A stretch of DNA of 64,000 nucleotides from a virus. The translations under genes and the position numbers were made by a program. How positions within the stretch are numbered: the stretch's first letter is position 1; each line of letters begins with the position of its first letter. The notes below the pieces were generated by a model. The model did not search any database and was not told the DNA's origin. It saw only the letters and a list, made by a program, of their open reading frames with translations. The stretch spans positions 1 through 64,000 of IMG/VR virus record IMGVR_UViG_3300031746_000003; one strand, 5' to 3'. Positions 43,708 to 63,973 of the stretch are shown here, one piece after another.

Positions 43708-44418
43708 TTACCCAGGAAACGCCAAAGCAATGATGTCCTCATGGACGTCACCTTTACTAGCTGGGAACAGGCTCTCAGCTAACTTCTGTCCCTTACTGTG
43801 GCGCACATAGAAGTAAGCTACGTTACGTACATTCCTGTGGGCCATCATAAAATAGCTGTTCACTACAAACATCTCAGTGTCATGTAGCTGAATAGTTTGG
43901 TGATTGATCTTGTTGCCCAGATCTAGGAAGACCTTCCACGGCTCAGTACTTTCTGTGTACTGCTCGACTAGCCCTAGGTACTCTTCTGTGACTACATAAA
44001 ACACCCTGGCCCACTCCAGTATCTTAGAGCTGCTAAGGGGGAGCTCGCTCTCTATAAGCTCTTCAGCTTCAGCGTACAGCTGTAGGATAGCGAGTTCTGT
44101 TAGTACCAAGGGCTTGGTGTCCACGCCTAGTACCGTCAGTAGCTTGGACAGTAACTTCTCTGTATTCTGGCTAGACACGTAGGCTTGCTTGGCCATGGTG
44201 GCTACCGCTGCAAGGCTGGTGTCCTTTGACTTGGCCTCAACCAGCGCAGCTACATCGTCTATTTTGTAGAGCCTAGGAGATCTGGATGAGCGCCCAGGCC
44301 TGACGAATGGTAGAATACCTGAGCGGGTGTACCCCCGTACCATACTGACACCTACCCCTAACATCCTCCCAGCCTCCTTGGCGGTCAGTAGGTCAGCTTC
44401 GCTTTCAGGTATAGCCAT
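43708..44418 (-). CDS. MerR/excisionase-type HTH DNA-binding protein
   Basis: LLTAKEAGRMLGVGVSMVRGYTRSGILP...RLYKIDDV. Confidence 0.75.
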   Translation of the reverse strand: MAIPESEADLLTAKEAGRMLGVGVSMVRGYTRSGILPFVRPGRSSRSPRLYKIDDVAALVEAKSKDTSLAAVATMAKQAYVSSQNTEKLLSKLLTVLGVDTKPLVLTELAILQLYAEAEELIESELPLSSSKILEWARVFYVVTEEYLGLVEQYTESTEPWKVFLDLGNKINHQTIQLHDTEMFVVNSYFMMAHRNVRNVAYFYVRHSKGQKLAESLFPASKGDVHEDIIALAFPG

Positions 44419-44442: not shown

Positions 44443-45681
44443 ATGAGCGACCTACCTTCTTCTCTACTTTTACAGCAGTCCCACGCTCGAAGTATCTCTG
44501 GCGAGGACCTAGAGACCTTCGGTCGTCAAGCCGCAGAGAAATATGCATCCGGTACCCCACTAACACAAGCTGTAGTGGAGACGGTGAAGAAAGCTGGGCT
44601 TTCTCCCGAGCAGGTACGGAGAGTAACAGAGTTTGCTAACACAGAGACGTTCCTCCGGGAGTTCAAGAAGGAAGGCTCTGAGCACCGCGTTGTGAACTTC
44701 GACGGTGGCCCAGCAGACTACTCTCGGGTTCTTCAAGATCTAAACGATGGTGGTGGGGGAACCGTATTTGACTACGGTAACTCTGACTACTCACATGAGC
44801 CGTCTAAGAAGGCATCTGTGCGTGATGATTTTGAAGTAAAGCTAGCCTCCATGTTTGAGGTGGGGAGCACGGCTCTACCATATGCTGAGCCTCTTCGAGA
44901 TGCGATGGACTTGAAGGACAAGCTAGCAGCTGCCTATGACGAGATAGCTCATGAGCTATCCACTGGAGAGAACGTATTCGGGGACATCTCGGACTACCTC
45001 TACAACCAGGTTAAGCAGGCAGCTCTTAATGGGGTTAGTCTAGGAGATGTGGTCCAGGTTTGGAGTTTACTATCTCCAGATCCCATCTTCATCAAGACCG
45101 CCTTCCAGATGGTAACCCCACGGCTAGTGAGCGATGGGGTCATGTCTAGGGCTGACCTGAACGACTCTATTGCTAAGACAGCCCACAACGTTACGCCTAA
45201 CCCAGAGCACCCACTGGTAGATGGTTTTCAAGCGTACTGTGAGTCGCTGAATAAACTAGCGGCTCTACGACAGGTACAGGGGGAATTAGAGGCTGGCTTG
45301 GACAGTATCTCTACGTTCCTAAAGGCTGCCGCTGAGGAAGTGGTAGTCAAGGATAACAAGCCTATATCTGAGGTCATTAAGAAGGTTTGGCACGGCTCAA
45401 AAGAGTTATCTGAAAAAGCTGCGCCACATACCGCTGACTTAGCTAGGGCCGCAGTCGGCGGGGTACTAGGTCATGGCGCTGGTGAGACGGCTAGCAAGGT
45501 AGTGGGTGGGATCACTAAGAAAGCGCCGCATATTGCGGCTGCCCTAGCGGCAGAAGCTGCGTACCAAAGAGCTAAGTACAGCCCTACAGTGCAGGGAACT
45601 AAGAACTTCGTCCTATCTAGAGTTCCGTATACGAATCAGAATATGATTCGGCAGTACAACCTACAAAATTCGAATCCCTAA
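44443..45681 (+). CDS. head-associated protein with KxA motifs
   Basis: LSPEQVRRVTEFAN; VKLAS, VKQAA, AKTAH; Gly-zipper C-terminus. Confidence 0.7.
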   Translation: MSDLPSSLLLQQSHARSISGEDLETFGRQAAEKYASGTPLTQAVVETVKKAGLSPEQVRRVTEFANTETFLREFKKEGSEHRVVNFDGGPADYSRVLQDLNDGGGGTVFDYGNSDYSHEPSKKASVRDDFEVKLASMFEVGSTALPYAEPLRDAMDLKDKLAAAYDEIAHELSTGENVFGDISDYLYNQVKQAALNGVSLGDVVQVWSLLSPDPIFIKTAFQMVTPRLVSDGVMSRADLNDSIAKTAHNVTPNPEHPLVDGFQAYCESLNKLAALRQVQGELEAGLDSISTFLKAAAEEVVVKDNKPISEVIKKVWHGSKELSEKAAPHTADLARAAVGGVLGHGAGETASKVVGGITKKAPHIAAALAAEAAYQRAKYSPTVQGTKNFVLSRVPYTNQNMIRQYNLQNSNP

Positions 45682-45682
45682 A

Positions 45683-46156
45683 ATGACTAACAAGCTAGAC
45701 AGCTATATAGACAAGCGAGCGTCCTACAAGGTGACTCCTATGAGTCAGATCCTTAGGCAGGCTGCGCCACACATAGGTGCTCAAGTTGCTGTCGGTGTTG
45801 CAATGATGGGTGTAGGTGCGGCTGCTAGAGCATCCTATCAAGCAATAACGAAGCGCCGTGACTTCCGTACTATGCTGCAGTCGAACCCAGACTTGCAGGA
45901 TCACATGAGCGCAAACCCAGCGCAGTTCAATAGACACTACAACTCTCTTAGGTCTATGAACCCTGACTTTGCTACTGACCCCATAGTGGCAGGTAGCTAC
46001 ATGCGCCAAATGAGCCTTAACCCGCGCACTGCGGGTAACGTCATAGTTGAATCACTGCAGGCCGCTAAGGGGCAGCGTGGTCCTTCACACGTCTCCATGG
46101 GCTGGACTGAGGGTGAGAAGCCGTCTGGGAAGCTCGAAGGTAAGTTCGGCTTCTAA
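45683..46156 (+). CDS. head-associated small protein
   Basis: YIDKRAS leader followed by a hydrophobic segment. Confidence 0.6.
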   Translation: MTNKLDSYIDKRASYKVTPMSQILRQAAPHIGAQVAVGVAMMGVGAAARASYQAITKRRDFRTMLQSNPDLQDHMSANPAQFNRHYNSLRSMNPDFATDPIVAGSYMRQMSLNPRTAGNVIVESLQAAKGQRGPSHVSMGWTEGEKPSGKLEGKFGF

Positions 46157-47892
46157 TGATCAAGCTCAGCCACTTCAGAGGAGAATCTGAAGCTGGGCCT
46201 ACGGTAATACCGCTCTTTGGTCCCGCTGATTCTACGTTTGAGAAGGTTGCTTCTTACACCCTTCTACCAGACGTAGTCCGTTACATTGGGGACCTAAGAC
46301 CCTCGCACAACTCTCAGTACGTTCTAGTGAACGCCATGGGAGCTACGGAGTGGTGGGGGTCTAACGTGAACGGGGATAGCTTCAAAGAAGCCTCCTTGAT
46401 TCATCGCCCTGAGAACTGGACTGGTAACCCCCTACTAGACAAGGTGGTAGCCAGGGACTGGGCCTATGGTTTCCCCACGTTCTACAACGCCCACGCCTTC
46501 GCTCACCATAAGAACAAGGATGCTGGCAGGGCTTACGGTAATGTAGAGCTAGCTGCCTGGAACCCGCACATGAAGCGGGTAGAGCTGGTCATCAGGGTAG
46601 ACAAGGACAAGTGTGAGCAGTTCGGTGGTACTGCTGTCTGGGATAGGCTTCGAGCAGGGCAGTACCCGGATGTCAGCATGGGATGTCGGGTCAAGTTTGA
46701 TACCTGTAGTATCTGTCTAGACCGCGAGCTCTACAACAAGGCCATTGCTAGCTTCAACCCGAAGACACAGAAGGCCCCTGACGACGCGGTTATAGCTATG
46801 CATGAGCGGCTGAAGGCTCATGACGGCGTCGGTATTCGTGGGGTATCGAAGACACGCGTTGACTACTGTCAGCACGCGTTAAAGCAGATGAACAAGATCT
46901 TGCCCGATGGGCGCAAGGTCTGGGTAGACAATGACTACCCCAGGTTCTTCGACATCAGCTTTGTATTCATCGGGGCAGACAAGACTGCCAAGGTGATGAT
47001 GTTCATCCATGGTGGGAAGATGAAGACATCTTCTCAGCTAGCTGATGAGCTAGGTTACATAGAGCTTGTCGGCGGTACTGAGAAGGTAGCTTCAGTAGAC
47101 GATGAGATCTTGAAGATGGCTCTGCTTGGTAAGAGCGCCAAGAGCAAAAAAGGAGAGATGAAGAAGGACATCGTACCTAGCCAGTTCGCTGGTAAGGCGG
47201 TGCCTATCATCTCCGGTAAAGAGAAGGACCTTCCTGACGAGGTTCTAGAAGCTATGGCTAAGGTGCCACTAGAGAGGTCCCTAGCTACAGCTTCTGGGTT
47301 AGGCATGGTTCTGAAGCCGAGAGAGTTTCAGAGGATCACTCTTATCAGTATTTCTCAGCGCCCCATGGCAGACCAGTTAGACAAGGACAACAAGGTCTTT
47401 AGCCACTGCGATGAAGAGCACCCAATAGGGATGTCCCCTAAGGACTTCATGCCAGCATTGGCTCGTTTACTGCTGCCATTGATGGCTTCTAGGTCTGCAC
47501 TTGGGGAACATGTAGAGAAGCGGGCGATGGAGGCTTTTAGTTCTCCAGCAGAAATTAAAGATCCCCCTTCTTCCCATAGTGCGGAGATACTACGTAAGAT
47601 TAGTTCTGCCTATAACGGTTACCGTAGAGAACTAATGGACTTGGCCGCACATTCTCAGGAGCTCATACCTAAAGCAGCAATGGTTGCTGAGGTAGAGTTG
47701 CACAAGCTGGCTAATGCTACGGTAGAAGATACCTTTACCCCACTGTCTATTGAGTATCTACAACAAGCCTTCTTGAATGAGAGGGGTGTTGGACATACAA
47801 CAGCAGAAGTGGTAAAACAATCAACAATCAGGCTAACGCCGGCGTGTAGAGAGGTTCCCCTCTCAGTGAGCACGTGGAACCATCGTACGTAA
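46156..47892 (+). CDS. prohead (capsid maturation) serine protease
   Basis: NVNGDSF, AHHKN (His), DVSMGC (Ser), CSIC, FFDISFV..GAD; upstream of scaffold and capsid genes. Confidence 0.7.
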   Translation: MIKLSHFRGESEAGPTVIPLFGPADSTFEKVASYTLLPDVVRYIGDLRPSHNSQYVLVNAMGATEWWGSNVNGDSFKEASLIHRPENWTGNPLLDKVVARDWAYGFPTFYNAHAFAHHKNKDAGRAYGNVELAAWNPHMKRVELVIRVDKDKCEQFGGTAVWDRLRAGQYPDVSMGCRVKFDTCSICLDRELYNKAIASFNPKTQKAPDDAVIAMHERLKAHDGVGIRGVSKTRVDYCQHALKQMNKILPDGRKVWVDNDYPRFFDISFVFIGADKTAKVMMFIHGGKMKTSSQLADELGYIELVGGTEKVASVDDEILKMALLGKSAKSKKGEMKKDIVPSQFAGKAVPIISGKEKDLPDEVLEAMAKVPLERSLATASGLGMVLKPREFQRITLISISQRPMADQLDKDNKVFSHCDEEHPIGMSPKDFMPALARLLLPLMASRSALGEHVEKRAMEAFSSPAEIKDPPSSHSAEILRKISSAYNGYRRELMDLAAHSQELIPKAAMVAEVELHKLANATVEDTFTPLSIEYLQQAFLNERGVGHTTAEVVKQSTIRLTPACREVPLSVSTWNHRT

Positions 47893-47914: not shown

Positions 47915-48559
47915 ATGAGCACATTGCACGGTAACGAAGATATGGAGAAGGCGGCGGCAGCTGAGCTATTTGTTAAGCTCGCCCAGGAGAACGGCATCAA
48001 TCTTAACCAGATGACTGATGCGGATATCAGCAGTCTCTGGCAGGAGACGTTCGGTGAGAAGACCGCTGAGGCAGCAGTAGCAGTAGAGCCCACGGTTGAC
48101 CCGACGATTGAGGCTGCCGAGCAGGAGCACGCTGAGAAGCAGGCTTCGCTAGCTAAGTTTGCTGAGGCGGAAGAGCTTGGTCGTCACATGGCCCGTAGCT
48201 ATGTGGATGAGCTCCAGAAGATAGGCTCTGCGGCTAAGACAGCCGGAGACGACGAGAAGAAGGATGAAGCCAAGGACGAGGACAAGAAGGACGACAAGGA
48301 CGCCGACGACAAGGGTGGCTTCCCCTTCAAGAAGGCTTCCGCCATCGACCAGCTCTCGGCATACAAGGCTGTAGAGAAGGCTGCGTCTATTGGGTACAGC
48401 AGTGAGGAAGCGGCAGACCGGATCAGTGCAGTGCTGACTCTTGGTCTGGCGAACAACGACGGTGTCAAGGTCGCGTCTGCCCCCAACGTAGAAACGGCCA
48501 CTGAGATTCGCTCGCTAGAGCTTCTTGAGGCGGCTGGTTACCCGGTCACTTGGAACTAA
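47915..48559 (+). CDS. putative scaffold protein (acidic, KxA repeats)
   Basis: MEKAAA, VKLAQ, EKTAE, EKQAS, AKTAG, KKASA, VKVAS. Confidence 0.6.
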   Translation: MSTLHGNEDMEKAAAAELFVKLAQENGINLNQMTDADISSLWQETFGEKTAEAAVAVEPTVDPTIEAAEQEHAEKQASLAKFAEAEELGRHMARSYVDELQKIGSAAKTAGDDEKKDEAKDEDKKDDKDADDKGGFPFKKASAIDQLSAYKAVEKAASIGYSSEEAADRISAVLTLGLANNDGVKVASAPNVETATEIRSLELLEAAGYPVTWN

Positions 48560-48579
48560 GTGGATGCTAAGAGGTACTG

Positions 48580-50076
48580 ATGTTCAAGCTATCGGACTCC
48601 AACTCGATAGCCCTCCCCGACCCAACTGCTGGGTCGGCGGAGGATGCACCAATAGCTCTTACGCACGTAGCAAACAAGCCAGCTCCAGGACTCAAGGGAC
48701 CAGCAGGTCTTTCCCCCCGAACTTCCTACTCCAGAGTGAACACAGGATCTCCGCCTATCCCCGACGCAGGGGCATCAGGGCAGAAGAGCATGTCACCAGG
48801 AGGCTTGGAGTTCTTACCCAAGACAGCCAGTGAGGATTTCATGCACACTATGATCGAGCGTCCTACTCTCCAAGACATGCTGAAGGCAGCCATGGAGGGC
48901 ACCATCAACAAGGTGGACATCACCAATGAGGCTGCCCGTCAGCTGTACAACCAGGGTGATGACGAAGCCCCAGTAGCTGAGAAGATGGCTTCCACTACGC
49001 ACTTTTCTACTGACTACATCGAGAAGCTTTCCGATGCTATCGGCTACATTGCTGAGAAGCTAGCAGAGGACAGCAAGAAGGAAGCTGCTACTGGCCATCA
49101 GCAGAAGCCAGGTGAAGGTCCGGGTGCTCTACATGTCATGCAGGCTACGTCCAGCATGAGGAACGTGGATGCTGGTGAGCAGGGTCAAGCTAAGACTCAG
49201 CTGCCGGTTAACCCCGGTACAAAGAAGCTACCTGGGCAGAAGCAAGATCCAGGTACAGCGATGGAGACCAACGTGCACATGCAACATGGCGAGCAGCCTG
49301 TTGACCCGTGGCACAATGAGAAGGCCAAGCTATCAGAAGCTGCTGACCAATCGCTGGTAGAGCGTCTGAAGAAGCTTGCTGCTGGACTGCCTGGCGCTCC
49401 TACATTTGCTGGACGTGCCGGTGGTGTGAGCTCGGCTCTAGTTAAGCCCACAGGAGCTCAGTGGGCTCCAGGTCATAGCGCAGCTGGCAGAGATCCCTTC
49501 CATGGAATGGCTCTACCGAAGTCGCCGATACCTGCCCCACCAGCACATGTTTACCAGGCTGCTGGTATGGCTCAGCCAAAGGTGGCGGCAGCTCCTGTCG
49601 CTCTTCTTCGCAAGCTAGCTGGTGAGGATGAAGCTCCGGCTACCATCAGTGCTGGTCCAGCAGTACCTCCTGACGCCAGCTCTGCTGAGCAGGGTGTCCC
49701 TGTGCAGCCTTCTGACGTCAATCGTCAGACCAATATGGTTGACTCTAATATGTCGGCCATTAACTACACCAAGGGGCAGGCCAAGGCAGATCCCAAGACT
49801 GACGTGAACAAGGTCCTCGTCGAGAAGGCTCTTTCGTCGGCTACTGACAAGACACTTGAACGTGCCTTCGCCCATACGGGACAGGCTGGTGTGAAGATCT
49901 CTGCCGCTGATACTTCTGATGCGTCTATTAAGGTAGCTGCAGCTCGTGCACTACTCTCTAAGATCGCATCGGAAGTAGACGACAAGCGTAAGAACAATAA
50001 AGAGAAGGACTCCGCCTTTGGAGGTCCTACACCACAGGCAGCTACTGGTGTTAATGCTGCCTCTATGGGTTCCTAG
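48580..50076 (+). CDS. putative scaffold/internal head protein (disordered, KxA repeats)
   Basis: KTAS, EKMAS, KEAA, KKLAA, KVAA, RKLAG; possible second start at 48841. Confidence 0.6.
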   Translation: MFKLSDSNSIALPDPTAGSAEDAPIALTHVANKPAPGLKGPAGLSPRTSYSRVNTGSPPIPDAGASGQKSMSPGGLEFLPKTASEDFMHTMIERPTLQDMLKAAMEGTINKVDITNEAARQLYNQGDDEAPVAEKMASTTHFSTDYIEKLSDAIGYIAEKLAEDSKKEAATGHQQKPGEGPGALHVMQATSSMRNVDAGEQGQAKTQLPVNPGTKKLPGQKQDPGTAMETNVHMQHGEQPVDPWHNEKAKLSEAADQSLVERLKKLAAGLPGAPTFAGRAGGVSSALVKPTGAQWAPGHSAAGRDPFHGMALPKSPIPAPPAHVYQAAGMAQPKVAAAPVALLRKLAGEDEAPATISAGPAVPPDASSAEQGVPVQPSDVNRQTNMVDSNMSAINYTKGQAKADPKTDVNKVLVEKALSSATDKTLERAFAHTGQAGVKISAADTSDASIKVAAARALLSKIASEVDDKRKNNKEKDSAFGGPTPQAATGVNAASMGS

Positions 50077-50109
50077 GCATCCTGAGTGTAGAATACTAAG
50101 GACTACTTC

Positions 50110-50475
50110 ATGGAAAAGCTAAGTAACGAAAAGATCTCTCAGGTTCTACAGGACACTCAAGTTGTTCTGATGAGCGTCGCGGCCGAGCGTGACTCTGCTG
50201 TTGAGAAGCTTGCTCATCTAGAGCGGCGTCTTGATGCCGAGAAGCTTGCTGCCATGATGCACCACAAGGGTCTGGAGACAGACACAGATTTTGCTTCGCT
50301 AGCTGACCATCTTGAGAAAGAGGCAGAGCGGGGCAAATTCGAAGTAATCAAACAAGCGGTTGAGATGGTCGGTCCCAACATGGGATTTAAGACCGCAAGT
50401 GTTCACCACGACTCGGTGACCCAAGGAGCCGGACATACCGACTTCGAAAGGTTCCTAGTCGGGGACGTAGGCTGA
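50110..50475 (+). CDS. small scaffold-like protein
   Basis: Coiled coil with EKLA x2 and FKTAS. Confidence 0.6.
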   Translation: MEKLSNEKISQVLQDTQVVLMSVAAERDSAVEKLAHLERRLDAEKLAAMMHHKGLETDTDFASLADHLEKEAERGKFEVIKQAVEMVGPNMGFKTASVHHDSVTQGAGHTDFERFLVGDVG

Positions 50476-51056: not shown

Positions 51057-52181
51057 ATGAGCGTCCCGGCACGTATGCTGAATGAGCTCTTTACCCAGAA
51101 GCTTTCATCGGCTGAGGGTAAGGAAAAGATCGCGGAGTATGGTGGCTCGTACATTCGAGACCGTCTTCGTGAGGTTAGCTTTGCGCGGAAGATCCTTCCG
51201 CCTGAGCAGGTCACACGGGCGGATTGCCAGCGGTCGGTTAATCACGACACGCTAGTGAAGATCGTCGATGTTGAGCCGAAGAGCCGAGCGATGTCGATCA
51301 CGTTCCGTGGACAGCCCACGGCACGGTTCATTCGCGGGGCGAAGGCCGAGATCGCGTTCTACACGATCAGCTCTGAGATCTTCCAGAAGACAGAGCAGGA
51401 GCTTCTCGCCTACGAGATGCCCATCACCAAGATTATCGAGGAGAACTCGGTAAAGGATATCCAGGAGATTGAGGACCGTGAGTTCCTCATCCACATTGAG
51501 GCGGCCTGCCAGGCGCTACAGACAGAGGCCAACGGTGGCGTGTCTACGGCGCTCAACTGGACGAACATCAATGCGGCTTCCGTGGTCGAGTTCTCGATCA
51601 TCAAGGGTGAGCTAGCTCGTACGGCTGGCGTCGATGACGCCACTGTCCGTCCGATCCAGCGCCCGGATGTGGTCAACCTGTTCAAGCTTCTTGACGGGAA
51701 CCGTCTCCGTGCCGAGCGCATCCTCATGACGGAGGTCGACTGGGACGACATCCTTCAGTGGACCCTTGAGGACTTCGGTGATCGCATGCAGTCCGAGACT
51801 GCAGTTGACGGCTACAAGTACAACACGCTGCTCGGTCGTCCGTACATCCGTACGATCAAGACGGACATCCTCCGTCGCGGCAACGTGTACGTGTTCACGC
51901 GTCCGGAGTTCTTCGGTAAGTTCTACGTGCTTAACAACACGAAGTTCTACATCGACAAGATCGCGAACACGATCACCTTCCAGGCCTGGGAAGACATTGG
52001 TATGGGCATCATCAACATCGCGTCTGTTCGTAAGCTAGAGCTCTACTCTGGTGACGCGAACCCGACGACGAATGCTGACTCGCTGCTCGCCAACTTCATC
52101 CCAACGGATGAGGACCAGCTCGGCGCGGTGAACAACCGTGTTGACCAGGGCCTCAAGTTCCCGCAGGTCAGCCAGTTCTGA
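51057..52181 (+). CDS. major capsid protein (HK97 fold)
   Basis: IRDRLREVSFARKILPP, IQEIEDREFL; strong codon bias; AGGAG RBS; downstream hairpin; head-module position. Confidence 0.8.
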   Translation: MSVPARMLNELFTQKLSSAEGKEKIAEYGGSYIRDRLREVSFARKILPPEQVTRADCQRSVNHDTLVKIVDVEPKSRAMSITFRGQPTARFIRGAKAEIAFYTISSEIFQKTEQELLAYEMPITKIIEENSVKDIQEIEDREFLIHIEAACQALQTEANGGVSTALNWTNINAASVVEFSIIKGELARTAGVDDATVRPIQRPDVVNLFKLLDGNRLRAERILMTEVDWDDILQWTLEDFGDRMQSETAVDGYKYNTLLGRPYIRTIKTDILRRGNVYVFTRPEFFGKFYVLNNTKFYIDKIANTITFQAWEDIGMGIINIASVRKLELYSGDANPTTNADSLLANFIPTDEDQLGAVNNRVDQGLKFPQVSQF

Positions 52182-54505: not shown

Positions 54506-56956
54506 ATGAACGCTTTTGACCGGCTCAGTTACTCTATCCCACTGGCTGATGCTTCTTCTTTTTTCATCAAGTTGAAGACAGCAGCAGTTACAGACCCGCC
54601 TGACGAGACTGGTATGCTTGAGGGCGAGTTCGAAGCCCCAGTAGAAGAAGTCATAGGGGTCATGAAAGAGCTCGTTGAGAACGAGTTCAAGACCATGGTG
54701 GCTTACCACGTCTATGCTAATAGCCTTCGTGATTTGGCTCACAGCAGTATTGCTGAAGAGTTTGAGGAGCACGCTGAGAAGGAACTAGAGCATGCGAATT
54801 ATCTTCTTCGCCGCATGTCTGTACTTGGTGGGCCGATTCAGATCGGGGAGATAGAGCCACCTCCTGCCTCCTCTGAGGCTACTGACATCATCCAGACAAT
54901 GATTCGGTACGAGCAAGAGGGTATTGCCAAGTGGAAGATTCTCCACTCCATGATGGGGGAGAACCCATCTAAGTACGACATCGAGCAGTTCCTCACCAAT
55001 GAGCTTCATCATCTTGATGAGCTCTGGCAGCTACTGCCGCAAGAGGCTCACCAGCCGGTACTACATGGTAAGGCCCTCCCAGGTATGCCAGGTGACCCAA
55101 TGGCTCAGCCACTGGCAGCACCAGTTGAGCCAGCTAGCACTGAAAGTATTCCTGCGCCTACTGATCAGGCGGGTAAGACAGCTGCTAGTATAGATTGGGC
55201 AGATAAGAAGTTAGTAGCTGCTGCTGACAAGGTGTTTAAGCGTACTGGTAAGAAACCCTATACGTTAAACATGGCGGAAGACGCCTCCAAATTAACAGGC
55301 TCGTTGAAAGCGCAGCATACTCAGGCGGGTAAGACTCATCGTACGTCATCTCCACATAATCGTTCGGCTATTCGTGCACAAGTAAAAGAGATACGTGAGA
55401 AGAGCGCAGCTGCTGTCAAGATGCGCTTTAGTTTAGCGCTCCATAAGCTGGCTGATGGTGAGATTGGTGGAGCAGCTACTGAGGGTGCGCAGATGTCTGC
55501 GCCCACACCGGCTAAGACGATGCCCACAAACTACCTGGCAGCAGAGCAGATAGCTCAGCAGGCCCAGAATATGAACGAGTCTACGTTCTACCGCCAGCAA
55601 CTAGAGACGCAGAAGCTGCAGGCTCAGGCAGCTCAGCAGCAGGCAGAGCAGCAAGCTCAGCAGCTATCTGAGATGCAGAATCAGGTAGCTATCAGTGGTA
55701 CTGAGGCTCAGGCGGCATCACAGCAGGCGTTGCAGTCTCAGCAGGAGGCTACTCAGTCAGCTCAGATGTCAGCCAACATGCGGCTAGGGCTAGAGCGTAT
55801 GAGGACCCAGCTTATGGATCTGGCTGCTCAAGATCCGGCTACTCCTCAGACCCCAGTACAGGGACAATCCATGCAGCAACAGCAGGTTGACCAGGCTGCT
55901 GCAGCTGGTGACCCTAATGCTGTCGCTCAGCAACAGGCTAACCAGGGCATGGCTCTAGACCCAGGCACAGCTCAGTCCGGTGTTGATAGCGGCATCGGTG
56001 GTGAGAGCTCTGGTGGTACTGGTGGTTCGCAAGGACCAGCTGTAGCTGCTGAAGGCGCACAAGGAGCTCCAGGTGCAGCTCCACCAGCTGGTGCAGCTCC
56101 ACAGAATGCCAACGCTACCGGCACTCCGCCTACGGCAGCTACGACAACGCCAGCTACTAACCTCAGCGTCAAAGTAGGCTCTGCTCTTACAGAAGCAGCC
56201 AGAGACAAGATCAAGACTAAGAACTTTGCGCTCTCTGCAAAGCAGTCAGATACCGGTGCACCTAAGTACCCGATTGAAGATCGCCGTCACGCAGCCAATG
56301 CCCTTAGCCGTGTAGGTCAATTCGGTTCTCCTAAGGAGAAGGCTGAGGTTTACAAGGACGTGGCCAGGAAGTACCCAGACCTTGCTCGGCACAGTGATAT
56401 ACCAGCAGTGAAGGCAAAGGCTAAGCACGCTAGTAAGTACCACGCTGGTTACCCCAAGTTTCTTAAGAGGTATAGTGAGGGGCTAACCGGTGAGAAGGTA
56501 CGCGATCTAAAGGGTACACGGGACACGGTTAAGAACAAGCTAGAGAAATCCCACGTACTAAAGACTAGAGGTGGTACTGCAGCAGCTGTAGTTGCGCCTA
56601 TTGTTGGGAAGAAGCTACACGATAAGCGTAAGGCGAATAACGACAAGCTCGCTGGTGTAGCGGGTGCTATCGGTGGAGCAGCTCTTGGTGGTATGGGTGG
56701 CTTACTAGAAGCCCACACGGCTAACCCAGAAGCCATGAACCAACGCGTTCACGAGCTAGAGGCCAGGGACAGAGGCACCTTTGGTGATGCTCTCTCTATC
56801 GCTAAGGCGAAGATGAGAGCTTCCATGGGTGAGCTTTCTCACGCGCATCCAGGGGCAGCTATGCTTACAGGTGCAGCTATCGGTGGGGTAACTGGGCATC
56901 ACATAGAGTCTCAGCTACCTGGGATTATGCAGAACATAAAAGAACTGAGGAGCTGA
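54506..56956 (+). CDS. multi-module head polyprotein: ferritin-like domain, Gln-rich coil, DUF6582-like domain, Gly zippers
   Basis: ENE..AY...EKELEHA...YEQE...NELHH diiron pattern; KYPIEDRRHAANAL; GAIGGAALGGMGG. Confidence 0.75.
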   Translation: MNAFDRLSYSIPLADASSFFIKLKTAAVTDPPDETGMLEGEFEAPVEEVIGVMKELVENEFKTMVAYHVYANSLRDLAHSSIAEEFEEHAEKELEHANYLLRRMSVLGGPIQIGEIEPPPASSEATDIIQTMIRYEQEGIAKWKILHSMMGENPSKYDIEQFLTNELHHLDELWQLLPQEAHQPVLHGKALPGMPGDPMAQPLAAPVEPASTESIPAPTDQAGKTAASIDWADKKLVAAADKVFKRTGKKPYTLNMAEDASKLTGSLKAQHTQAGKTHRTSSPHNRSAIRAQVKEIREKSAAAVKMRFSLALHKLADGEIGGAATEGAQMSAPTPAKTMPTNYLAAEQIAQQAQNMNESTFYRQQLETQKLQAQAAQQQAEQQAQQLSEMQNQVAISGTEAQAASQQALQSQQEATQSAQMSANMRLGLERMRTQLMDLAAQDPATPQTPVQGQSMQQQQVDQAAAAGDPNAVAQQQANQGMALDPGTAQSGVDSGIGGESSGGTGGSQGPAVAAEGAQGAPGAAPPAGAAPQNANATGTPPTAATTTPATNLSVKVGSALTEAARDKIKTKNFALSAKQSDTGAPKYPIEDRRHAANALSRVGQFGSPKEKAEVYKDVARKYPDLARHSDIPAVKAKAKHASKYHAGYPKFLKRYSEGLTGEKVRDLKGTRDTVKNKLEKSHVLKTRGGTAAAVVAPIVGKKLHDKRKANNDKLAGVAGAIGGAALGGMGGLLEAHTANPEAMNQRVHELEARDRGTFGDALSIAKAKMRASMGELSHAHPGAAMLTGAAIGGVTGHHIESQLPGIMQNIKELRS

Positions 56957-56958
56957 TC

Positions 56959-58632
56959 ATGCTCGATACATTTTTGAAGGTTGCCTACGACCACGAGAAG
57001 ACCGCTGCTGGTAAGGAGTACACGGTTGACCTTCTAAAGCAGCTCCCTAATGACTACCTACAGGCGCTTGCGTCTGGCGAGGTAAAGCTAGCGCATCTTA
57101 GCTGCGGTTCTGGTGGGGACTACGAGTGGCTAGAGAAGTTCAAGGGTTCTCCTCTATTCGACCAGGCGCTGCAGCTAGAGCAGAAGACCTTGGAAATGGA
57201 CCTACAGAAGCAGCAGACGAACAACGAGCGTCGTCAGATGTGGGACCAGCAGGACCAGGAGATGGACCAGCTGCGCATCCAGAAGAAGCTGCTAGATCTA
57301 CAGCTCGTTCAACAAGAGGGTCAGACTGCCGCCGGTGGTATGCCCGCAGCTGAGGGTGCACCTCCTGAACTCCCAGTAGAAGCTGCTCCACCCGAGGCAG
57401 CTCCTCCTGGTCCACCAGCAGCTGCCGCTAACCCTGTTTCTGTGAAGGTGGGCTCCATAAGTAAGACAGCTCTAACTGCTGCTGATGTGTATCGTCGGGT
57501 GAATAATGCAGCCATTAACGCGAGTCCAAAGCGTCTTAATAACTTCGGCAAGAGGATGGATATCGCACACGATATGGCTGTAGGAGATAACGTAGCTAAA
57601 GGGCTAGCGCACCCATCGTCAGCAGGCTCTGCTTCTAAGTATTGGGATGCTGGGACCGCTGCTAACTATGCGGAAAGAGCAAAGAGGCAGGGTTTACCGG
57701 TAAAACGGATGGAGAAGGGTGGTGCCGCTAGTTCTAAGGACAAAGTTACGGCGAAAGACCGTATGCACGCTGGCGCTCGGGGGGCAGCAGTTGGCGGTAC
57801 TCTTGGGGCTGTTGCACATGAGGTTAACCGACGTATTACGGGGACTAAATCTCATAAGGGGTTAGTCCCAAACGTTGCTGAAAAAGCCATTGTCATTGGG
57901 GGTTTAGCTGCTGCCCTAGCTAAGTCACGTAAGGAAAAGACCTCCGCTGAGCACGAGAAGCACCGCGCAACTAAGCAGGTAGCTTCTTTAGCTGCTCTCC
58001 CTGCCCTAGGAGCAGCGACTGGCGCAGGTGGCAGGGCACTTCTTTCCTTAGGAGTCAAGGATACCGAGCCGTTAACTGCCAAGGCGGTCAAAGCACTTGG
58101 TGAGGCTGTGCCTTCTGCTAAGGAGCAGCTCAAGAACCTTCTGAAGAACCAGAAGGCGAAACCAGGAGACCTGGCGCACAAGGTCATTCGTGGGGCTGGT
58201 GTTGGTGGTGCTATTGGTCTAGGCGCTGCTGGGGCTATAGGTGCTACGCAGCTGATCCACCATGGAGACACCGAGGGGCATATCACAGGTGCTATGAAGC
58301 GCCGCCGAGAAGCAGCTGAGAGTTTTGCTAAATCTCATAGTGTTAAGGAGGGCAGCAAGGTTGCTAGTAGCCCCATGCTAAACGCCATGCGGAGTCTAAG
58401 AAGTGCGTGGGGTATCGAGAAGGACAGTGCAGCAGCCCCAGCTGTAGACCCGCACCTTGGTATGAAGCTAAAGGACGCACCACAAGCCGCTTTAAATGCA
58501 GTGCAGTACGGCACACATGCGGCTGGTGACTGGGTAGGTAAGAATCCAAAGGCTGCTCTTGGTGGTGCAGCTCTACTTGCTGGTGGCGCGTTGCTGGGAA
58601 GAGCTAGTAAAGACGACCGTCCAAGGTACTGA
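56959..58632 (+). CDS. multi-module head polyprotein with several Gly-zipper peptides
   Basis: FLKVAYDHEKTAA; segments GAAVGGTLG, ALGAATGAGG, GAGVGGAIGLG, ALGGAALLAGG separated by KxA/KxG. Confidence 0.65.
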   Translation: MLDTFLKVAYDHEKTAAGKEYTVDLLKQLPNDYLQALASGEVKLAHLSCGSGGDYEWLEKFKGSPLFDQALQLEQKTLEMDLQKQQTNNERRQMWDQQDQEMDQLRIQKKLLDLQLVQQEGQTAAGGMPAAEGAPPELPVEAAPPEAAPPGPPAAAANPVSVKVGSISKTALTAADVYRRVNNAAINASPKRLNNFGKRMDIAHDMAVGDNVAKGLAHPSSAGSASKYWDAGTAANYAERAKRQGLPVKRMEKGGAASSKDKVTAKDRMHAGARGAAVGGTLGAVAHEVNRRITGTKSHKGLVPNVAEKAIVIGGLAAALAKSRKEKTSAEHEKHRATKQVASLAALPALGAATGAGGRALLSLGVKDTEPLTAKAVKALGEAVPSAKEQLKNLLKNQKAKPGDLAHKVIRGAGVGGAIGLGAAGAIGATQLIHHGDTEGHITGAMKRRREAAESFAKSHSVKEGSKVASSPMLNAMRSLRSAWGIEKDSAAAPAVDPHLGMKLKDAPQAALNAVQYGTHAAGDWVGKNPKAALGGAALLAGGALLGRASKDDRPRY

Positions 58633-59537
58633 TGCCCGTCCCGCTGGTAGTTAAAGAGTTAAAGATCCGCTCGTTAGACGCAGACTTCAACGAAATATCG
58701 TGGAAGCTGGAGTCTACGAGTGAGGACGTGCTCGACTACACCTTTCAGGTTACTCGTTCAGAGGGTGCCGAGGGGCCCTACGACGCAATATCTCCGTTGA
58801 TGGACGACACTTATATCTTCATCGACAATATGGTGAAGATCGGGCATCGCTACCGACATAACTTCTACAAGCTGGTCATCACCCAGAAGTCTTCTGGAGA
58901 CACTTCTGAGTTTGGTCCTGAGGAGAAAGAGGCGGAGCCAGATCTAATAGCTCTAGAACTGCGGAAGCATATGAACCTGCTTTTCCGTGAGTTCGCTGGG
59001 CGTAGGTGCTGGGTGCTGCCTGTTAGAACCTTTGGTCAACGCTGCGGGTGTTGGAATGCCACACTGCAAAAGCGTACGCGTTCCGGTTGCCGTACTTGTT
59101 ACGACACAGGTTTTATTCGTGGGTACATGCACCCAATAGAGACCTGGTTACAGATAGATCCTAGTCCCGCCAACGAGACGACTACTAATGTAGGCCCTAT
59201 CCATCAGAACAACACTACTGCTCGGCTAGGCTACTACCCTTCGTTAAAGCCTCGTGATCTTATCATTGAGCCAGAGAACCGCAGGTGGCGAGTTACTCAG
59301 GTAGGTGCTACTGAGCAGTTACGTTCTCCGGTACACCAAGAGATACAGATTCACGAGGTACCCCAGACCGACATAGAGTTTTTGATACCTCTGCAGTTAG
59401 ATCAGGCTCTACGGGATGTGTTCTTCTCTCCTGCTAGGAACTTCACGAATCCGTACACGTTAGAGAACTTCGAGAACGAAGAGATCCCTAAGATCTACAA
59501 TCTGTACTACTCTAGCTACCCACCAGTGAAGTCATGA
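58632..59537 (+). CDS. neck/head-completion protein with Zn motif
   Basis: N-terminal Fn3-like beta domain; CGC...CRTCYDTGF; PRDLIIE...RWRV. Confidence 0.55.
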   Translation: MPVPLVVKELKIRSLDADFNEISWKLESTSEDVLDYTFQVTRSEGAEGPYDAISPLMDDTYIFIDNMVKIGHRYRHNFYKLVITQKSSGDTSEFGPEEKEAEPDLIALELRKHMNLLFREFAGRRCWVLPVRTFGQRCGCWNATLQKRTRSGCRTCYDTGFIRGYMHPIETWLQIDPSPANETTTNVGPIHQNNTTARLGYYPSLKPRDLIIEPENRRWRVTQVGATEQLRSPVHQEIQIHEVPQTDIEFLIPLQLDQALRDVFFSPARNFTNPYTLENFENEEIPKIYNLYYSSYPPVKS

Positions 59538-59869
59538 TATCCGTACGTCACTACCTACCAGAGTACGCTGACAGCTTTGCCAAGTTAGCTGGGGTATTGC
59601 CAGCTACCGTAGCTAAGAAGCCTGACAGCCAGCTTAAGCGAACGCTTCAGACAGCGGCTAAGGGAGCTCTTGGTATTGGGCTAGGTACTGCCGCAGGTTT
59701 TGGTATTGGGGCAGCTACTGATGCTATAGCTCGCGGGCTTAGTGGCAAGCCTTCTGGCATACCTGAGTTCAAGTATATCGTTCCTGTGTTAACTGCCGGG
59801 ATGCTGGTGTCTAAGGCTTTGTGGCAAGCTAAGGAACAGGAGGCTCTACGTGGCAGGAAAGATCGTTGA
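59534..59869 (+). CDS. small Gly-zipper protein with KxA leader
   Basis: DSFAKLAG; GIGLGTAAGFGIG. Confidence 0.55.
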   Translation: MISVRHYLPEYADSFAKLAGVLPATVAKKPDSQLKRTLQTAAKGALGIGLGTAAGFGIGAATDAIARGLSGKPSGIPEFKYIVPVLTAGMLVSKALWQAKEQEALRGRKDR

Positions 59870-63800: not shown

Positions 63801-63973
63801 TTGGTACTGTTATCCAGGGTTCTCTAGGGTTCCTCATCGAGCACGGCATCCTCATCGGTGGGCAGCTGAACAACATTGTTCAGGACGAGACTGCTCCTGA
63901 CACGGTGCTTATCGATATCACCCTGGATGTTCCATATCCCTGCAACTACATCCGTCTGACCCTATTCATCTGA
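60818..63973 (+). CDS. contractile tail sheath protein with inserted domains
   Basis: N-terminal RPGVEV and C-terminal PDTVLIDITLDVPYPCNYIRLTL sheath signatures; 1051 aa. Confidence 0.85.
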   Translation: MAAELPRPGVEVIQVFRTTSPTVITPTLTPCVVGVAKQIVDVLVPTGSGSNTLNTAALINMPGFFISKDAVGDPPIYSILDGDAFSISVNGGADITLEFSDLAAAGLSPADIVAQVNEQLLAQNVSSIRATQVGDLTWRLATVGLGEFQYITILDADASVLSAFGIGIGKTYAGLDNYNQLIAEIPQANFPDPRSNLSQLAIENDSIRVFLATGNGANLLETSRTSAFCRNGATSKVVVTGITDIALLALYGGAGTLDTTVLNMSINGATSPTALTFVGLTNALNEAAMLAAITATFPGVVASFVAVGPVHNLVLTTTISGAPAQIRIFAGTANAILGLSVSDTVGGTISAVDDGNGDTVTPLIEFGGYTPQAFTVTPTQAVLTASSALTLPPAAGSTLILNGGDQTQTITFDGTEVLAAAVHAAINAVVGPAAGGHITASGATLVLTHDRFGTDSVINIVGGTALATSLDPGVTPTIVAGATKRGIVSKPEAGDSLYLDGSFYATILQVAPGLVTSRVKIDRQVPIKADLAQTFYIVANNLPGIASRPLPELTITLNGDVVIKQELLREITGTSVGTLRAPIYLAYKAVRKDVTSAATSPGLLRYDNTTTLTQDLSPINVSNPLALGLFFALLNAPGAQVTGIGVDEVSADSPYGTVEGFTRAAEYLENFEVYAIAPLTHDDTVGQVYNTHITVMSSPANKGERIAIWNPATPTKKLDTLVASGSDGNSSGPSGTLFDTGVANLSALLLNAGVNPVGTIPVSKGVFLDIASDSKHYSVQSISGATVTIRTVFGPGENTDAFYSTTDLNTPPLPASLIEEAFSVKVRGAALATVSGMPDRNGIAATVTGIGQSFLNRRFWMTFPDKAGAVIEGTDQIVEGFYMNAAIAGMIGQQPPQQSFTNFPMTGFTRVIGSSEVYSERQLNQMAAGGAYIIVQDFIGAPLIARMALTTDLTSVETRTDSITKVVDFTAKFLRKSLKNFIGRFNITQGLLDSLGTVIQGSLGFLIEHGILIGGQLNNIVQDETAPDTVLIDITLDVPYPCNYIRLTLFI

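What the first reader, a model, noticed from the sequence alone, without database searches (positions are those of the whole stretch)
54575..55190. Bacterioferritin-like diiron domain bracketed by KTAA sites inside a head polyprotein
Seen: a four-helix ferritin pattern with ferroxidase-type ligands (ENEFKTMVAY...EEHAEKELEHA...RYEQEG...TNELHH), with LKTAAV before it and GKTAAS after it, a few genes from the MCP. Established: HK97-fold encapsulins package ferritin-like cargo, and Dps/ferritins protect DNA from Fenton chemistry. Inference: the phage capsid carries a released ferritin-like cargo, either protecting packaged DNA or delivering iron handling on infection; an encapsulin-like arrangement in a true virus.
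Basis: partly seen in the sequence, partly recalled or inferred. Interest (0 to 1): 0.7.

Follow-up and report, generated by a model that had tools for sequence, protein, structure and literature searches.

The report
Ferritin-like domain in phage head precursor
An uncultured phage of about 190 kb, like more than a hundred of its relatives, encodes a genuine ferritin-type di-iron domain at the start of a long head-module protein, flanked by a short motif that looks like this phage group's capsid-protease cutting site, so an iron-handling enzyme may be packed inside the virus particle.

Summary
ORF 54506-56956 (816 aa) starts with a ferritin-fold domain: Pfam PF00210 E 3.9e-13, AlphaFold pLDDT 95-98, Foldseek hits to mini-ferritins and bacterioferritin. 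All six di-iron ligands are present, and K-T-A-A sits at residues 24 and 224.

The domain heads a large, uncultured phage-only family: 119 long proteins in one search and 145 clusters at E<=1e-30 in another. No stand-alone short form was found.

K-T-A is the most over-represented tripeptide in the head-to-sheath proteins of related phages (265 seen, 44 expected). It concentrates in the protease-like protein, scaffold-like proteins, the ferritin protein and its neighbour. It is absent from the major capsid protein and at chance level in the sheath. This is the signature of a prohead-protease cleavage motif, but no cleavage was observed.

Best reading (0.55): a processed internal head protein that releases a 22-kDa acidic, DPSL-like (Dps-like mini-ferritin) di-iron module.

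The encapsulin analogy is functional only. The capsid protein gave no Linocin_M18 (encapsulin shell) match, and the ferritin is not of the encapsulated-ferritin type.

About a fifth of family members have lost two ligands, so catalysis is not universal. Presence in virions, iron binding and oligomeric state are untested.

The parts
54506..56956 (+). ORF of 816 aa (P0001). Order of elements: N-terminal peptide, K-T-A site, ferritin-like module, K-T-A site, coiled coil, low-complexity stretch, basic segment, Gly-rich helical C-terminus.
   Evidence: The start is conserved across the family.
54506..54574 (+). Conserved N-terminal peptide, residues 1-23 (family consensus F-E..L...IPL.EAA.FF..L). 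Candidate propeptide or capsid-targeting peptide.
   Evidence: Conservation in 118 sequences. The pattern [IVL]P[LIMF]...F..K[TVL]A occurs at an N-terminus only here and in the protease-like ORF of this genome. The role is inferred.
54575..54586 (+). Site 1, K24-T-A-A. Putative protease site upstream of the ferritin domain.
   Evidence: Position 24 is K in 104 and R in 14 of 118 sequences. K-T-A precedes the domain in 61 of 143 parsed relatives, against a shuffle mean of 2.4.
54596..54631 (+). Near-invariant motif PPDETGxLEGxF, residues 31-42, between site 1 and helix A. Function unknown.
   Evidence: P32 116, D33 117, G36 116, E39 117, G40 117 and F42 117 of 118. It is retained in the ligand-degenerate subclade.
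54641..55033 (+). Ferritin-like four-helix bundle, residues 46-176. Di-iron ligands E60 (54683-54685), E93 (54782-54784), H96 (54791-54793), E136 (54911-54913), E166 (55001-55003) and H169 (55010-55012).
   Evidence: Pfam PF00210 E 3.9e-13; PDB alignment; AF2 pLDDT 95-98; Foldseek.
55175..55189 (+). Site 2, K224-T-A-A-S, in a disordered Pro/Ala-rich linker. Putative protease site downstream of the ferritin domain.
   Evidence: pLDDT is 34-44 around it. K-T-A lies within 100 aa after the domain in 51 of 143 relatives, against a shuffle mean of 6.5.
55190..56953 (+). Remainder of the precursor. Gln-rich coiled coil (residues 340-441), low-complexity stretch 446-555, basic segment 556-713 (pI 10.2; phrog_16160 match at 561-610), and a Gly-zipper-like helical C-terminus 714-816. 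Possible variant sites at K556-V-G-S and K714-L-A-G.
   Evidence: The variant sites are inferred.
46156..47892 (+). Probable prohead protease, 578 aa. H118 and S174 are invariant. K-[TV]-A sites lie at about residues 30, 276 and 310.
   Evidence: phrog_18299 E 0.0015, matched by 2 of 17 relatives. About 30% identity to phage G gp19, E 3e-10; gp19 is called a head maturation protease in PMC12484599. Alignment A2. The Foldseek top three are T4 gp21 but not significant, E 0.28-0.36.
44443..45681 (+). 412-aa head-module protein with K-T-A at residues 218 and 245.
   Evidence: Orthologues hold 27 K-T-A against 1.3 expected; all 11 of 11 have at least one.
47915..50475 (+). Three scaffold-position ORFs of 214, 498 and 121 aa that carry K-T-A sites.
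   Evidence: Orthologues: 38 against 4.5, 57 against 9.1, and 10 against 1.1 expected.
51057..52181 (+). Major capsid protein, 374 aa, with no K-T-A.
   Evidence: phrog_2522 E 5.8e-10. 31.6% identity to the Arash major capsid protein. 0 K-T-A in 29 orthologues against 3.1 expected. No Linocin_M18 match.
56959..58632 (+). Neighbouring 557-aa protein with K-T-A at residues 14 and 169. Low complexity with Gly-rich helices.
   Evidence: Orthologues hold 13 against 2.5 expected. No sequence similarity to P0001.

Best explanation
P0001 is a multi-part precursor in the head-assembly module of an uncultured contractile-tailed phage of about 190 kb. I propose it enters the prohead and is cut there by the phage's own maturation protease at K-T-A-type sites. 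This removes a conserved 23-24-residue N-terminal peptide and releases an acidic module of about 200 residues (22 kDa), whose core is a four-helix ferritin-like bundle with an intrasubunit di-iron centre of the Bfr/DPSL type. In most family members this module would oxidise Fe(II) with O2 or H2O2. It would keep redox-active iron and peroxide away from the densely packed genome in the particle, at entry, or both. The rest of the precursor (coiled coil, basic segment, Gly-rich helices) would serve other internal or ejection roles. Shown here: the fold, the ligands, the family, and the statistical link between the motif and head-module proteins. Inferred: cleavage, packaging, catalysis and the protective role.
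For: Fold and ligands. Pfam PF00210 scores E 3.9e-13. All six ligands align to bacterioferritin. The AF2 model has pLDDT 95-98. Foldseek top hits are 2qqy (TMt 0.86), thioferritin 2vzb, the DPSL protein PA4880 and mini-bacterioferritin 9qq4 (TMt 0.85). The full ligand set EEHEEH is kept in 92 of 118 family N-termini. Y67, which corresponds to the Tyr beside the Bfr centre (recalled), is kept in 115 of 118.

Family. 119 proteins of 448-1428 aa carry the domain at the N-terminus, on contigs up to about 200 kb. 145 clusters at 50% identity match at E<=1e-30. Only 3 short homologues exist, two on contigs of about 1 kb and one with no contig on record.

Motif. K-T-A is the top tripeptide of all those scanned over 341 non-redundant proteins in 17 orthologue groups: 265 seen against 44.2 expected. 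It is enriched 5- to 21-fold in the protease-like, scaffold-position, ferritin and neighbouring proteins. It is absent from the MCP (0 against 3.1) and two further groups, and at chance in the sheath (2 against 3.6). Third codon positions vary, so the motif acts at peptide level. It flanks the ferritin domain but lies inside it in only 1 of 143 relatives. The sites fall in low-pLDDT linkers.

Protease. The protease-like protein carries conserved sites at both ends of its catalytic domain. The cultured relative Arash shows K-[TQ]-A-[SAEG] in the equivalent proteins, including residue 30 of the protease homologue, and none in its MCP.

Precedent. A ferritin-like protein was detected in phage G particles (PMC12484599, passages read).
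Against: No experiment or proteome shows cleavage or virion location, and no cultured phage carries the protein (tblastn against 50,697 phage records found no match).

The protease assignment is weak. Pfam matched none of 17 relatives and the profile search of the PDB found nothing. The PHROG protease family matched only 2 of 17. The Foldseek hits to T4 gp21 are not significant.

Strict K-T-A on both flanks of the domain occurs in only 23 of 143 parsed relatives.

22 of 118 members have K at ligand 1, G/A/S at ligand 3 and D at ligand 5, and 4 more are irregular. The canonical centre is therefore dispensable in part of the family.

The orthologue counts are inflated by shared descent. The enriched and non-enriched groups were partly recognised from the same data.

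The gene lies after the head-completion-size ORFs and before the sheath, so a neck or tail role is not excluded.
Confidence: 0.55

Rival explanations
1. The ferritin bundle is mainly a structural or assembly module. It would act as a stable, acidic, self-associating four-helix unit that organises an internal core or scaffold, or sets copy number. Metal chemistry would be vestigial or secondary.
For: 22 of 118 members replace ligands 1, 3 and 5 (K, G/A/S, D), yet keep the domain and the invariant PPDETGxLEGxF, R103, Q137 and D171. The non-ligand motif PPDETGxLEGxF is better conserved than some ligands. The module is acidic across the family, with core pI 4.25-5.7 in 145 parsed proteins.
Against: 92 of 118 keep all six ligands and 115 of 118 keep the adjacent Tyr, despite 40-60% overall divergence. 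That argues for selection on the metal site in most lineages.
Confidence: 0.2
2. The module is packaged and then delivered into the host with the DNA. It would act in the cell, sequestering iron or consuming peroxide to blunt an oxidative or iron-dependent host response, rather than protecting DNA in the particle.
For: The same precursor carries Gly-zipper-like and basic segments that resemble membrane- or DNA-interacting ejection parts. This is an inference from composition only.
Against: If the module assembles into a 12-mer cage, as its nearest structural relatives do (PMC13168243 abstract), it could not pass through a tail tube. There is no evidence of ejection.
Confidence: 0.12
3. The protein is not a virion component. 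It would be a late-expressed cytoplasmic iron-storage or detoxification gene, an auxiliary metabolic gene that happens to sit in the structural module. K-T-A would then be a different kind of motif, such as a binding or modification site.
For: Stand-alone Dps- or ferritin-like genes exist in other phages outside structural modules (Lactobacillus phages, PMC6669764 passages; BFVD hits). JGI's automatic name for several members is simply 'bacterioferritin'.
Against: The domain is never stand-alone in this family. It is always fused to about 400-1200 further residues in a syntenic head-to-neck position. It shares the K-T-A motif and an N-terminal pattern with the protease-like protein.
Confidence: 0.08
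4. The locus is a true encapsulin-type iron-storage compartment, a domesticated capsid with ferritin cargo, rather than a virus.
For: It pairs an HK97-type capsid gene with a nearby ferritin-like protein. Two relatives lie on contigs binned with Myxococcales and Deltaproteobacteria MAGs, a group known for iron-storing encapsulins (recalled).
Against: The 120-kb record carries a large terminase (phrog_675 E 2.6e-57), a tail sheath and a protease-like gene. The MCP has no Linocin_M18 match. The ferritin is a full four-helix type, not an EncFtn half-ferritin.
Confidence: 0.02

Closest known systems
DPSL / thioferritin / mini-bacterioferritin (12-mer mini-ferritins with an intrasubunit Bfr-type di-iron centre; PDB 2vzb, 8w1e, 9qq4; also 2qqy)
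   Same: Four-helix bundle of about 135 residues without a fifth helix. E, ExxH, E, ExxH ligands lie inside one subunit. These are the best Foldseek matches, with TMt 0.72-0.86. The only NCBIfam hits are weak ones to archaeal DPS models.
   Different: Sequence similarity is marginal: PDB best E 2.9e-5, and NCBIfam 14 bits against cut-offs of 158 and 250. There is no Cys pair (no Cys in residues 25-224). No haem-ligand Met. It has an extra invariant N-terminal motif. It is never free-standing but is the head of a 450-1400-aa phage protein. The oligomeric state is unknown.
Bacterioferritin (Bfr)
   Same: It gives the best sequence hits in the PDB, and all six di-iron ligands and the adjacent Tyr align.
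   Different: The Met52 equivalent is Leu94. In the family this position is L 52, T 29, R 13 and I 9 of 118. No E helix is predicted. No NCBIfam Bfr model is matched.
Prohead-protease-processed internal head proteins (T4 IPI-III/Alt with their N-terminal capsid-targeting sequence and L/I-x-E sites; phiKZ inner-body proteins with S/A/G-x-E sites; recalled)
   Same: A short consensus motif is shared by the protease, scaffold-position proteins and extra head-module proteins, and is absent from tail proteins. A conserved N-terminal peptide ends at such a site.
   Different: The motif is K-T-A (with variants K-V/L/Q-A), which I know from no characterised system. The cargo is a ferritin-like domain. 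Nothing has been shown biochemically.
Encapsulin with ferritin-like cargo (EncFtn, IMEF, Myxococcus EncB/C/D; recalled and listing)
   Same: An HK97-fold shell would enclose a ferritin-superfamily di-iron protein.
   Different: The shell is a phage MCP with no Linocin_M18 match. Terminase, protease and tail genes are present. Loading would be by proteolytic processing rather than a cargo-loading peptide. The cargo is a full four-helix mini-ferritin type.
Other phage ferritin/Dps-like proteins (phage G gp346 found in particles; Lactobacillus phage Semele; 'Dps' and 'Prohead protease' proteins of uncultured Caudovirales in BFVD)
   Same: Ferritin-superfamily fold encoded by tailed phages. One was detected in virions.
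   Different: These are unrelated at sequence level: tblastn of P0001 against 50,697 phage records found nothing. Most are short, stand-alone, Dps-type proteins outside the head module.

Membership tests
Ferritin-like superfamily (Pfam PF00210 Ferritin) | Profile score above the curated cut-off | tested here: met
   50 bits against 24.5, E 3.9e-13, residues 54-171.
Ferritin-like superfamily (Pfam PF00210 Ferritin) | Four-helix bundle with a long B-C crossover loop | tested here: met
   AF2 helices at 46-71, 79-108, 125-150 and 155-176 with pLDDT 95-98. Foldseek gives 382 PDB matches at E<=0.001, and every listed row is a ferritin-type protein.
Ferritin-like superfamily (Pfam PF00210 Ferritin) | Di-iron ligands E, ExxH, E, ExxH | tested here: met
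   E60, E93, H96, E136, E166 and H169 align to the Bfr ligands. The full set is kept in 92 of 118 family members.
Bacterioferritin sensu stricto | Haem-binding Met at the dimer interface (Met52 of E. coli Bfr; recalled) | tested here: not met
   The aligned residue is Leu94. In the family it is L 52, T 29, R 13 and I 9 of 118.
Bacterioferritin sensu stricto | Fifth (E) helix and a 24-mer shell | tested here: not met
   Only a 3-residue helical turn (179-181, under the 4-residue threshold for listed helices) follows helix D. The best structural matches are 137-170-residue mini-ferritins. The 24-mer itself is not testable here.
Canonical Dps | Match to curated Dps models, with the ferroxidase site between subunits | tested here: not met
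   NCBIfam DPS models score 14.4 and 13.6 bits against cut-offs of 158 and 250. The ligands are intrasubunit, of the Bfr type.
DPSL / thioferritin | Conserved Cys pair next to the di-iron site (recalled) | tested here: not met
   No Cys in residues 25-224.
DPSL / mini-bacterioferritin | Dodecameric shell | not testable with these tools
   No tool here assembles 12 chains.
Encapsulin system | Shell protein of the encapsulin family (Pfam Linocin_M18) | tested here: not met
   No such match for MCP 51057-52181 at E<=0.1. It matches phage major head protein phrog_2522.
Encapsulin system | No genome-packaging or tail genes; cargo carries a loading peptide | tested here: not met
   Terminase (phrog_675 E 2.6e-57) and tail sheath are present. 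No loading peptide could be tested.
Prohead-protease-processed internal head proteins | Short consensus motif shared with the protease and scaffold proteins and absent from shell and tail proteins | tested here: met
Prohead-protease-processed internal head proteins | Demonstrated cleavage and presence in particles | not testable with these tools
   There is no cultured member and no proteome.

The most novel reading that the evidence does not exclude
A whole clade of uncultured phages of about 190 kb packs a catalytically competent mini-ferritin inside the capsid. It would be loaded through an N-terminal targeting peptide shared with the maturation protease, and freed by a previously undescribed K-T-A cleavage code. 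This would be the first dedicated iron and peroxide defence of a packaged viral genome, and a functional convergence with iron-storing encapsulins from the virus side.
Probability: 0.3. Interest if true: 0.8.

Novelty: new variant of a known kind. Interest (0 to 1): 0.62.

Why it matters
Tailed-phage capsids are known to carry enzymes such as RNA polymerases, ADP-ribosyltransferases and lysins. A conserved, protease-released ferritin-type di-iron protein has not turned up in the literature I could search.

If packaged, it would point to oxidative, iron-catalysed damage as a selective pressure on free virions or on entering genomes. It would also give a natural example of enzyme cargo loading into an HK97-fold shell by a virus, the mirror image of encapsulins.

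Independently of the ferritin, the K-T-A motif (K-[TQ]-A in the cultured Salmonella phage Arash) is a testable cleavage rule. It would let the processed head proteome of this poorly annotated phage group be predicted from sequence.

Tried and rejected
Homodimer prediction of residues 28-190 with complex prediction returned no verdict: median score 0.41 against a mark of 0.42. It is neither support nor evidence against self-association.

Attempts to firm up the protease assignment:
- Profile of 17 relatives against the PDB: 0 hits.
- Pfam on all 17: nothing relevant.
- PHROG protease family: 2 of 17.
- Foldseek on a moderate AF2 model (mean pLDDT 62.7): T4 gp21 ranks 1-3, but E 0.28-0.36 is not significant.

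ESM Atlas search with residues 556-816 gave no usable hit.

P0001 and its 557-aa neighbour are not paralogues (best E 3.2).

Portal search: the 685-aa ORF 37118-39175 has no PHROG match and no tblastn match in phages, so the portal gene remains unidentified.

The DNA-word explanation of K-T-A was rejected because third codon positions vary.

The Dps-like DNA-coating role was rejected because the module has pI 4.5.

Supplementary tables of the Arash and phage G papers were not available. They may hold per-peptide coverage that bears on cleavage sites.
Full report
**Where it lies.** The window is the first 64 kb of a 120,344-base IMG/VR virus record that CheckV rates 64% complete, which implies a genome near 190 kb. 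The finding sits in ORF 54506-56956 (+), 816 aa, stored as P0001. Upstream on the same strand lie:
- a large terminase, 41578-43350 (phrog_675 E 2.6e-57; Pfam GpA_ATPase E 7.2e-12);
- a 412-aa and a 157-aa ORF;
- a 578-aa protease-like ORF, 46156-47892;
- three ORFs in the scaffold position (214, 498 and 121 aa) and a 174-aa ORF;
- the major capsid protein (MCP), 51057-52181 (phrog_2522 E 5.8e-10);
- four small ORFs.

Downstream lie a 557-aa ORF, three more ORFs, and a tail sheath at 60818-63973 (phrog_279 E 2.5e-5). Ten further ORFs of the module gave no Pfam match at E<=0.05 and only three weak PHROG matches, E 0.0015-0.03.

**The observation.** The coordinates are exact. K24 starts at 54575, and K224-T-A-A-S occupies 55175-55189. 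The domain between them is a ferritin:
- Pfam PF00210 scores E 3.9e-13, 50 bits against a cut-off of 24.5. Rubrerythrin scores only 20.2 bits, below its cut-off.
- phmmer against the PDB returns 113 distinct ferritin-type chains at E<=1. The best is a bacterioferritin (4am2, E 2.9e-5). Its alignment pairs E60, E93, H96, E136, E166 and H169 with the six bacterioferritin (Bfr) di-iron ligands.
- AlphaFold2 on a 63-sequence family alignment gives pLDDT 95-98 for residues 40-180. It predicts four helices and no fifth helix of listed length.
- Foldseek against the PDB gives 382 matches at E<=0.001. The leaders are a Bacillus ferritin-like di-iron protein (2qqy, target-normalised TM-score (TMt) 0.86), Bacteroides thioferritin, the Pseudomonas DPSL (Dps-like) dodecamer, a mini-bacterioferritin (TMt 0.85) and E. 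coli Bfr.

It is not a bacterioferritin in the strict sense. The haem-ligand position is Leu94, and no E helix is predicted. NCBIfam returns only sub-threshold archaeal DPS models, 14 bits against cut-offs of 158 and 250. The best label is a divergent, DPSL-like mini-ferritin domain without the thioferritin cysteines; residues 25-224 contain no Cys.

**The family.**
- A word-indexed search with residues 1-240 found 119 proteins of 448-1428 aa. All but the last three carry a precomputed PF00210 hit. They lie on contigs up to about 200 kb.
- An exhaustive phmmer search of 1.84 billion cluster representatives, using residues 28-190, found 454 hits at E<=0.001, 250 at E<=1e-10 and 145 at E<=1e-30. 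The 150 listed hits are nearly all 400-1340 aa, with the domain starting at residues 17-89.
- A search restricted to shorter proteins found only 3. Two lie on contigs of about 1 kb and one has no contig on record, so they are probably fragments.
- No deposited phage genome matches (tblastn against 50,697 records).
- 38 viral contigs and 2 MAG contigs, labelled Deltaproteobacteria and Myxococcales, encode relatives in the same gene order.
- The nearest cultured phages, judged by the MCP (26-32% identity) and the protease-like protein, are Salmonella phage Arash and three Vibrio phages. The protease-like protein also matches Bacillus phage G.

**Ligand conservation.** I aligned 118 N-termini: P0001 plus P0004-P0120. 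P0002 and P0003 were dropped because their N-termini are identical to the window's.
- The pattern E-E-H-E-E-H occurs in 92.
- K-E-[G/A/S]-E-D-H occurs in 22.
- Four are irregular.
- Y67 is kept in 115, and R103, Q137 and D171 in all 118.
- The motif PPDETGxLEGxF, just upstream of helix A, is almost invariant and is kept in the ligand-poor subclade.

**The K-T-A motif.**
- In this genome, K-T-A occurs 11 times in the 15 plus-strand ORFs between 44443 and 59537 (4,918 aa). The per-protein shuffle mean is 2.4 and the maximum 8, so 0 of 300 shuffles reach 11. The other ORFs (32,910 aa) hold 13 against a mean of 10.6, with 75 of 300 shuffles reaching 13.
- I then took the plus-strand ORFs of 41 related loci, L002-L006 and L008-L042, and assigned them by BLASTP to 17 window ORFs. 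I dropped ORFs shorter than 40% of the reference and near-duplicates sharing more than half of their 12-mers.
- Observed against expected K-T-A for the enriched groups: 412-aa protein 27/1.3 (11 proteins); 157-aa 6/1.1 (15); protease-like 46/4.3 (23); 214-aa 38/4.5 (23); 498-aa 57/9.1 (23); 121-aa 10/1.1 (23); ferritin protein 58/7.0 (28); 557-aa 13/2.5 (13).
- For the others: 174-aa 1/1.3; MCP 0/3.1 (29); 223-aa 0/0.7; 172-aa 0/0.8; the two 301-aa proteins 0/0.8 and 0/0.7; sheath 2/3.6. Two small ORFs were intermediate, at 4/0.5 and 3/1.7.
- In an unbiased scan of all tripeptides seen at least 10 times, over all 341 proteins, K-T-A ranks first (265 against 44.2). K-V-A, K-L-A and K-I-A follow close behind.
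- The 239 sites analysed prefer L/F/M at position -2, E at -1 and S/A/G at +3.
- Codon third positions vary, so the signal acts at peptide level.
- Of the 215 fetched family proteins (all except P0002 and P0003), 143 could be parsed with two anchor patterns; 72 were dropped. K-T-A lies before the domain in 61 (shuffle mean 2.4, maximum 7). It lies within 100 residues after the domain in 51 (mean 6.5, maximum 20). It lies on both sides in 23, and inside the domain in 1. With the middle residue relaxed to T/V/L/I/M/S, the counts are 78, 107 and 62.

Two caveats apply. Relatives share ancestry, so the counts are not independent events. The split into enriched and non-enriched groups was read partly from the same data, although the window's own pattern predicted seven of the eight enriched groups.

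**The protease.**
- The 578-aa ORF matches PHROG 'head maturation protease' weakly (E 0.0015), as do 2 of 17 relatives.
- Residues 106-281 are 30% identical to phage G gp19 (E 3e-10). Residues 43-303 and 55-314 are about 33% identical to Arash gp222 and to a Vibrio phage protein.
- The phage G paper calls gp19 a head maturation protease (PMC12484599, passages). The Arash record annotates gp222 as a structural protein.
- In a 17-sequence alignment, H118 and S174 are invariant. F-E-K-[TV]-A-[SA] lies near residue 30. The stretch F-D-I-S-F-V-x-I-x-A-D-[KR]-T-A at 264-278 is conserved throughout. E-K-[TV]-A-S sits in a variable linker near residue 310. Sites at both ends of the catalytic domain fit self-processing.
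- Pfam, a PDB profile search and Foldseek do not confirm the fold. T4 gp21 ranks 1-3 in Foldseek, but at E 0.28-0.36.
- I therefore call the assignment probable, not established.

**A shared N-terminal signal.** Within this genome, the pattern [IVL]-P-[LIMF], a gap of 4-14 residues, an aromatic or Leu residue, then K-[TVL]-[AG] occurs at an N-terminus only in the protease-like ORF (residue 18) and in P0001 (residue 11). There is one further, internal match elsewhere. This suggests a common propeptide or targeting peptide. That is an inference.

**A cultured handle.** In Salmonella phage Arash, K-[TQ]-A-[SAEG] occurs:
- four times in gp220;
- at residue 30 of gp222, the protease homologue;
- three times in gp223, and once each in gp224 and gp225;
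- not at all in the MCP gp226 or in gp218, 219, 221, 228 and 230.

K-Q-A is the most enriched tripeptide in gp220-225, at 7 against 0.54 expected. The motif may therefore extend to a phage on which the cleavage rule can be tested.

**Mechanism proposed.** The precursor enters the prohead, possibly through its N-terminal peptide. The maturation protease then cuts at K-T-A-type sites. A module of residues 25-224 (22.1 kDa, pI 4.5) is released, along with a coiled-coil piece, a basic piece (residues 556-713, pI 10.2) and a Gly-rich C-terminal piece. The released module has the ligand set and neighbouring Tyr of a ferroxidase centre. Its nearest folds are dodecameric mini-ferritins that oxidise Fe(II), some with H2O2 (PMC13168243 abstract; the DPSL chemistry is recalled).

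I therefore favour sequestration of iron and peroxide next to the packaged genome. The acidity argues against Dps-style DNA coating. The ligand-poor fifth of the family shows that some lineages use the domain without a canonical centre. That keeps a structural role alive as the main rival.

**Comparison with what is known.** Ferritin- and Dps-like genes occur in phages. Examples are the stand-alone genes in Lactobacillus phages (PMC6669764 passages) and a ferritin-like protein detected in phage G particles (PMC12484599 passages). Foldseek against predicted viral structures also matched 'Dps' and, intriguingly, 'Prohead protease' proteins of uncultured Caudovirales; I could not inspect those.

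None of the six literature searches that bore on this turned up a ferritin domain embedded in a processed head precursor, or a K-T-A cleavage rule.

The encapsulin comparison is functional only. The MCP has no Linocin_M18 match, the element is a full phage, and the cargo type differs.

**Verdict.** This is a new variant of known kinds: a ferritin-superfamily domain, and protease-processed internal head proteins. The family is large and conserved, but all steps beyond the sequence remain untested.

Noticed in passing
window 28701-35153 (+): A single 2150-aa ORF matches several PHROG 'RNA polymerase beta subunit' families, plus phrog_25354 (E 2.7e-110) and phrog_24349 (E 7.6e-75). It looks like a giant fused multisubunit-type RNA polymerase. 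In the relative Arash, RNA polymerase subunits dominate the virion proteome.
   Followed up: partly
window 54596-54631 (P0001 residues 31-42): The motif PPDETGxLEGxF is kept in 116-117 of 118 relatives, better than some metal ligands. It is retained where the ligands are lost. No known ferritin feature explains it.
   Followed up: partly
family proteins P0079, P0091-P0116 (subset): 22 of 118 relatives have the ligand pattern K-E-[G/A/S]-E-D-H. The Lys and Gly/Ala replacements recall the inactive centre of vertebrate L-chain ferritin (recalled).
   Followed up: partly
L007 (Salmonella phage Arash, OQ632216) gp220-gp225: K-[TQ]-A-[SAEG] recurs in the head-module proteins of this cultured relative, including residue 30 of the protease homologue, and is absent from its MCP.
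   Followed up: partly
window 45500-45681, 45683-46156, 56600-56953, 57700-58632, 59534-59869: Gly-zipper-like segments (runs such as G-x-x-x-G in Ala/Gly-rich helices) recur at the C-termini of several head-module ORFs, including P0001 and its neighbour. They may be membrane-active or self-associating parts.
   Followed up: no
window 46945-46989 (protease-like ORF residues 264-278): An almost invariant stretch, F-D-I-S-F-V-F-I-G-A-D-K-T-A-K, contains a K-T-A yet is modelled with low confidence. It could be an autocleavage or strand-exchange element.
   Followed up: no
window 43708-44418 (-): A MerR/excisionase-like DNA-binding protein (phrog_66 E 4.3e-7) lies on the opposite strand, between the terminase and the head genes.
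   Followed up: no
window 37118-39175 (+) and the whole head module: No portal gene could be recognised. The 685-aa ORF upstream of the terminase has no PHROG match and no tblastn match in phages.
   Followed up: partly
L041, L042: Two relatives of the locus lie on contigs binned into Deltaproteobacteria and Myxococcales MAGs. This is a weak hint at the host group.
   Followed up: no
BFVD entries A0A6J7WPK9, A0A6J7WIS1, A0A6J7XDU5: Proteins named 'Prohead protease' from uncultured Caudovirales match the model with probability 1.00 over 170-212 columns. They may be independent fusions of a ferritin/Dps-like bundle to a head protease. The sequences could not be inspected.
   Followed up: no
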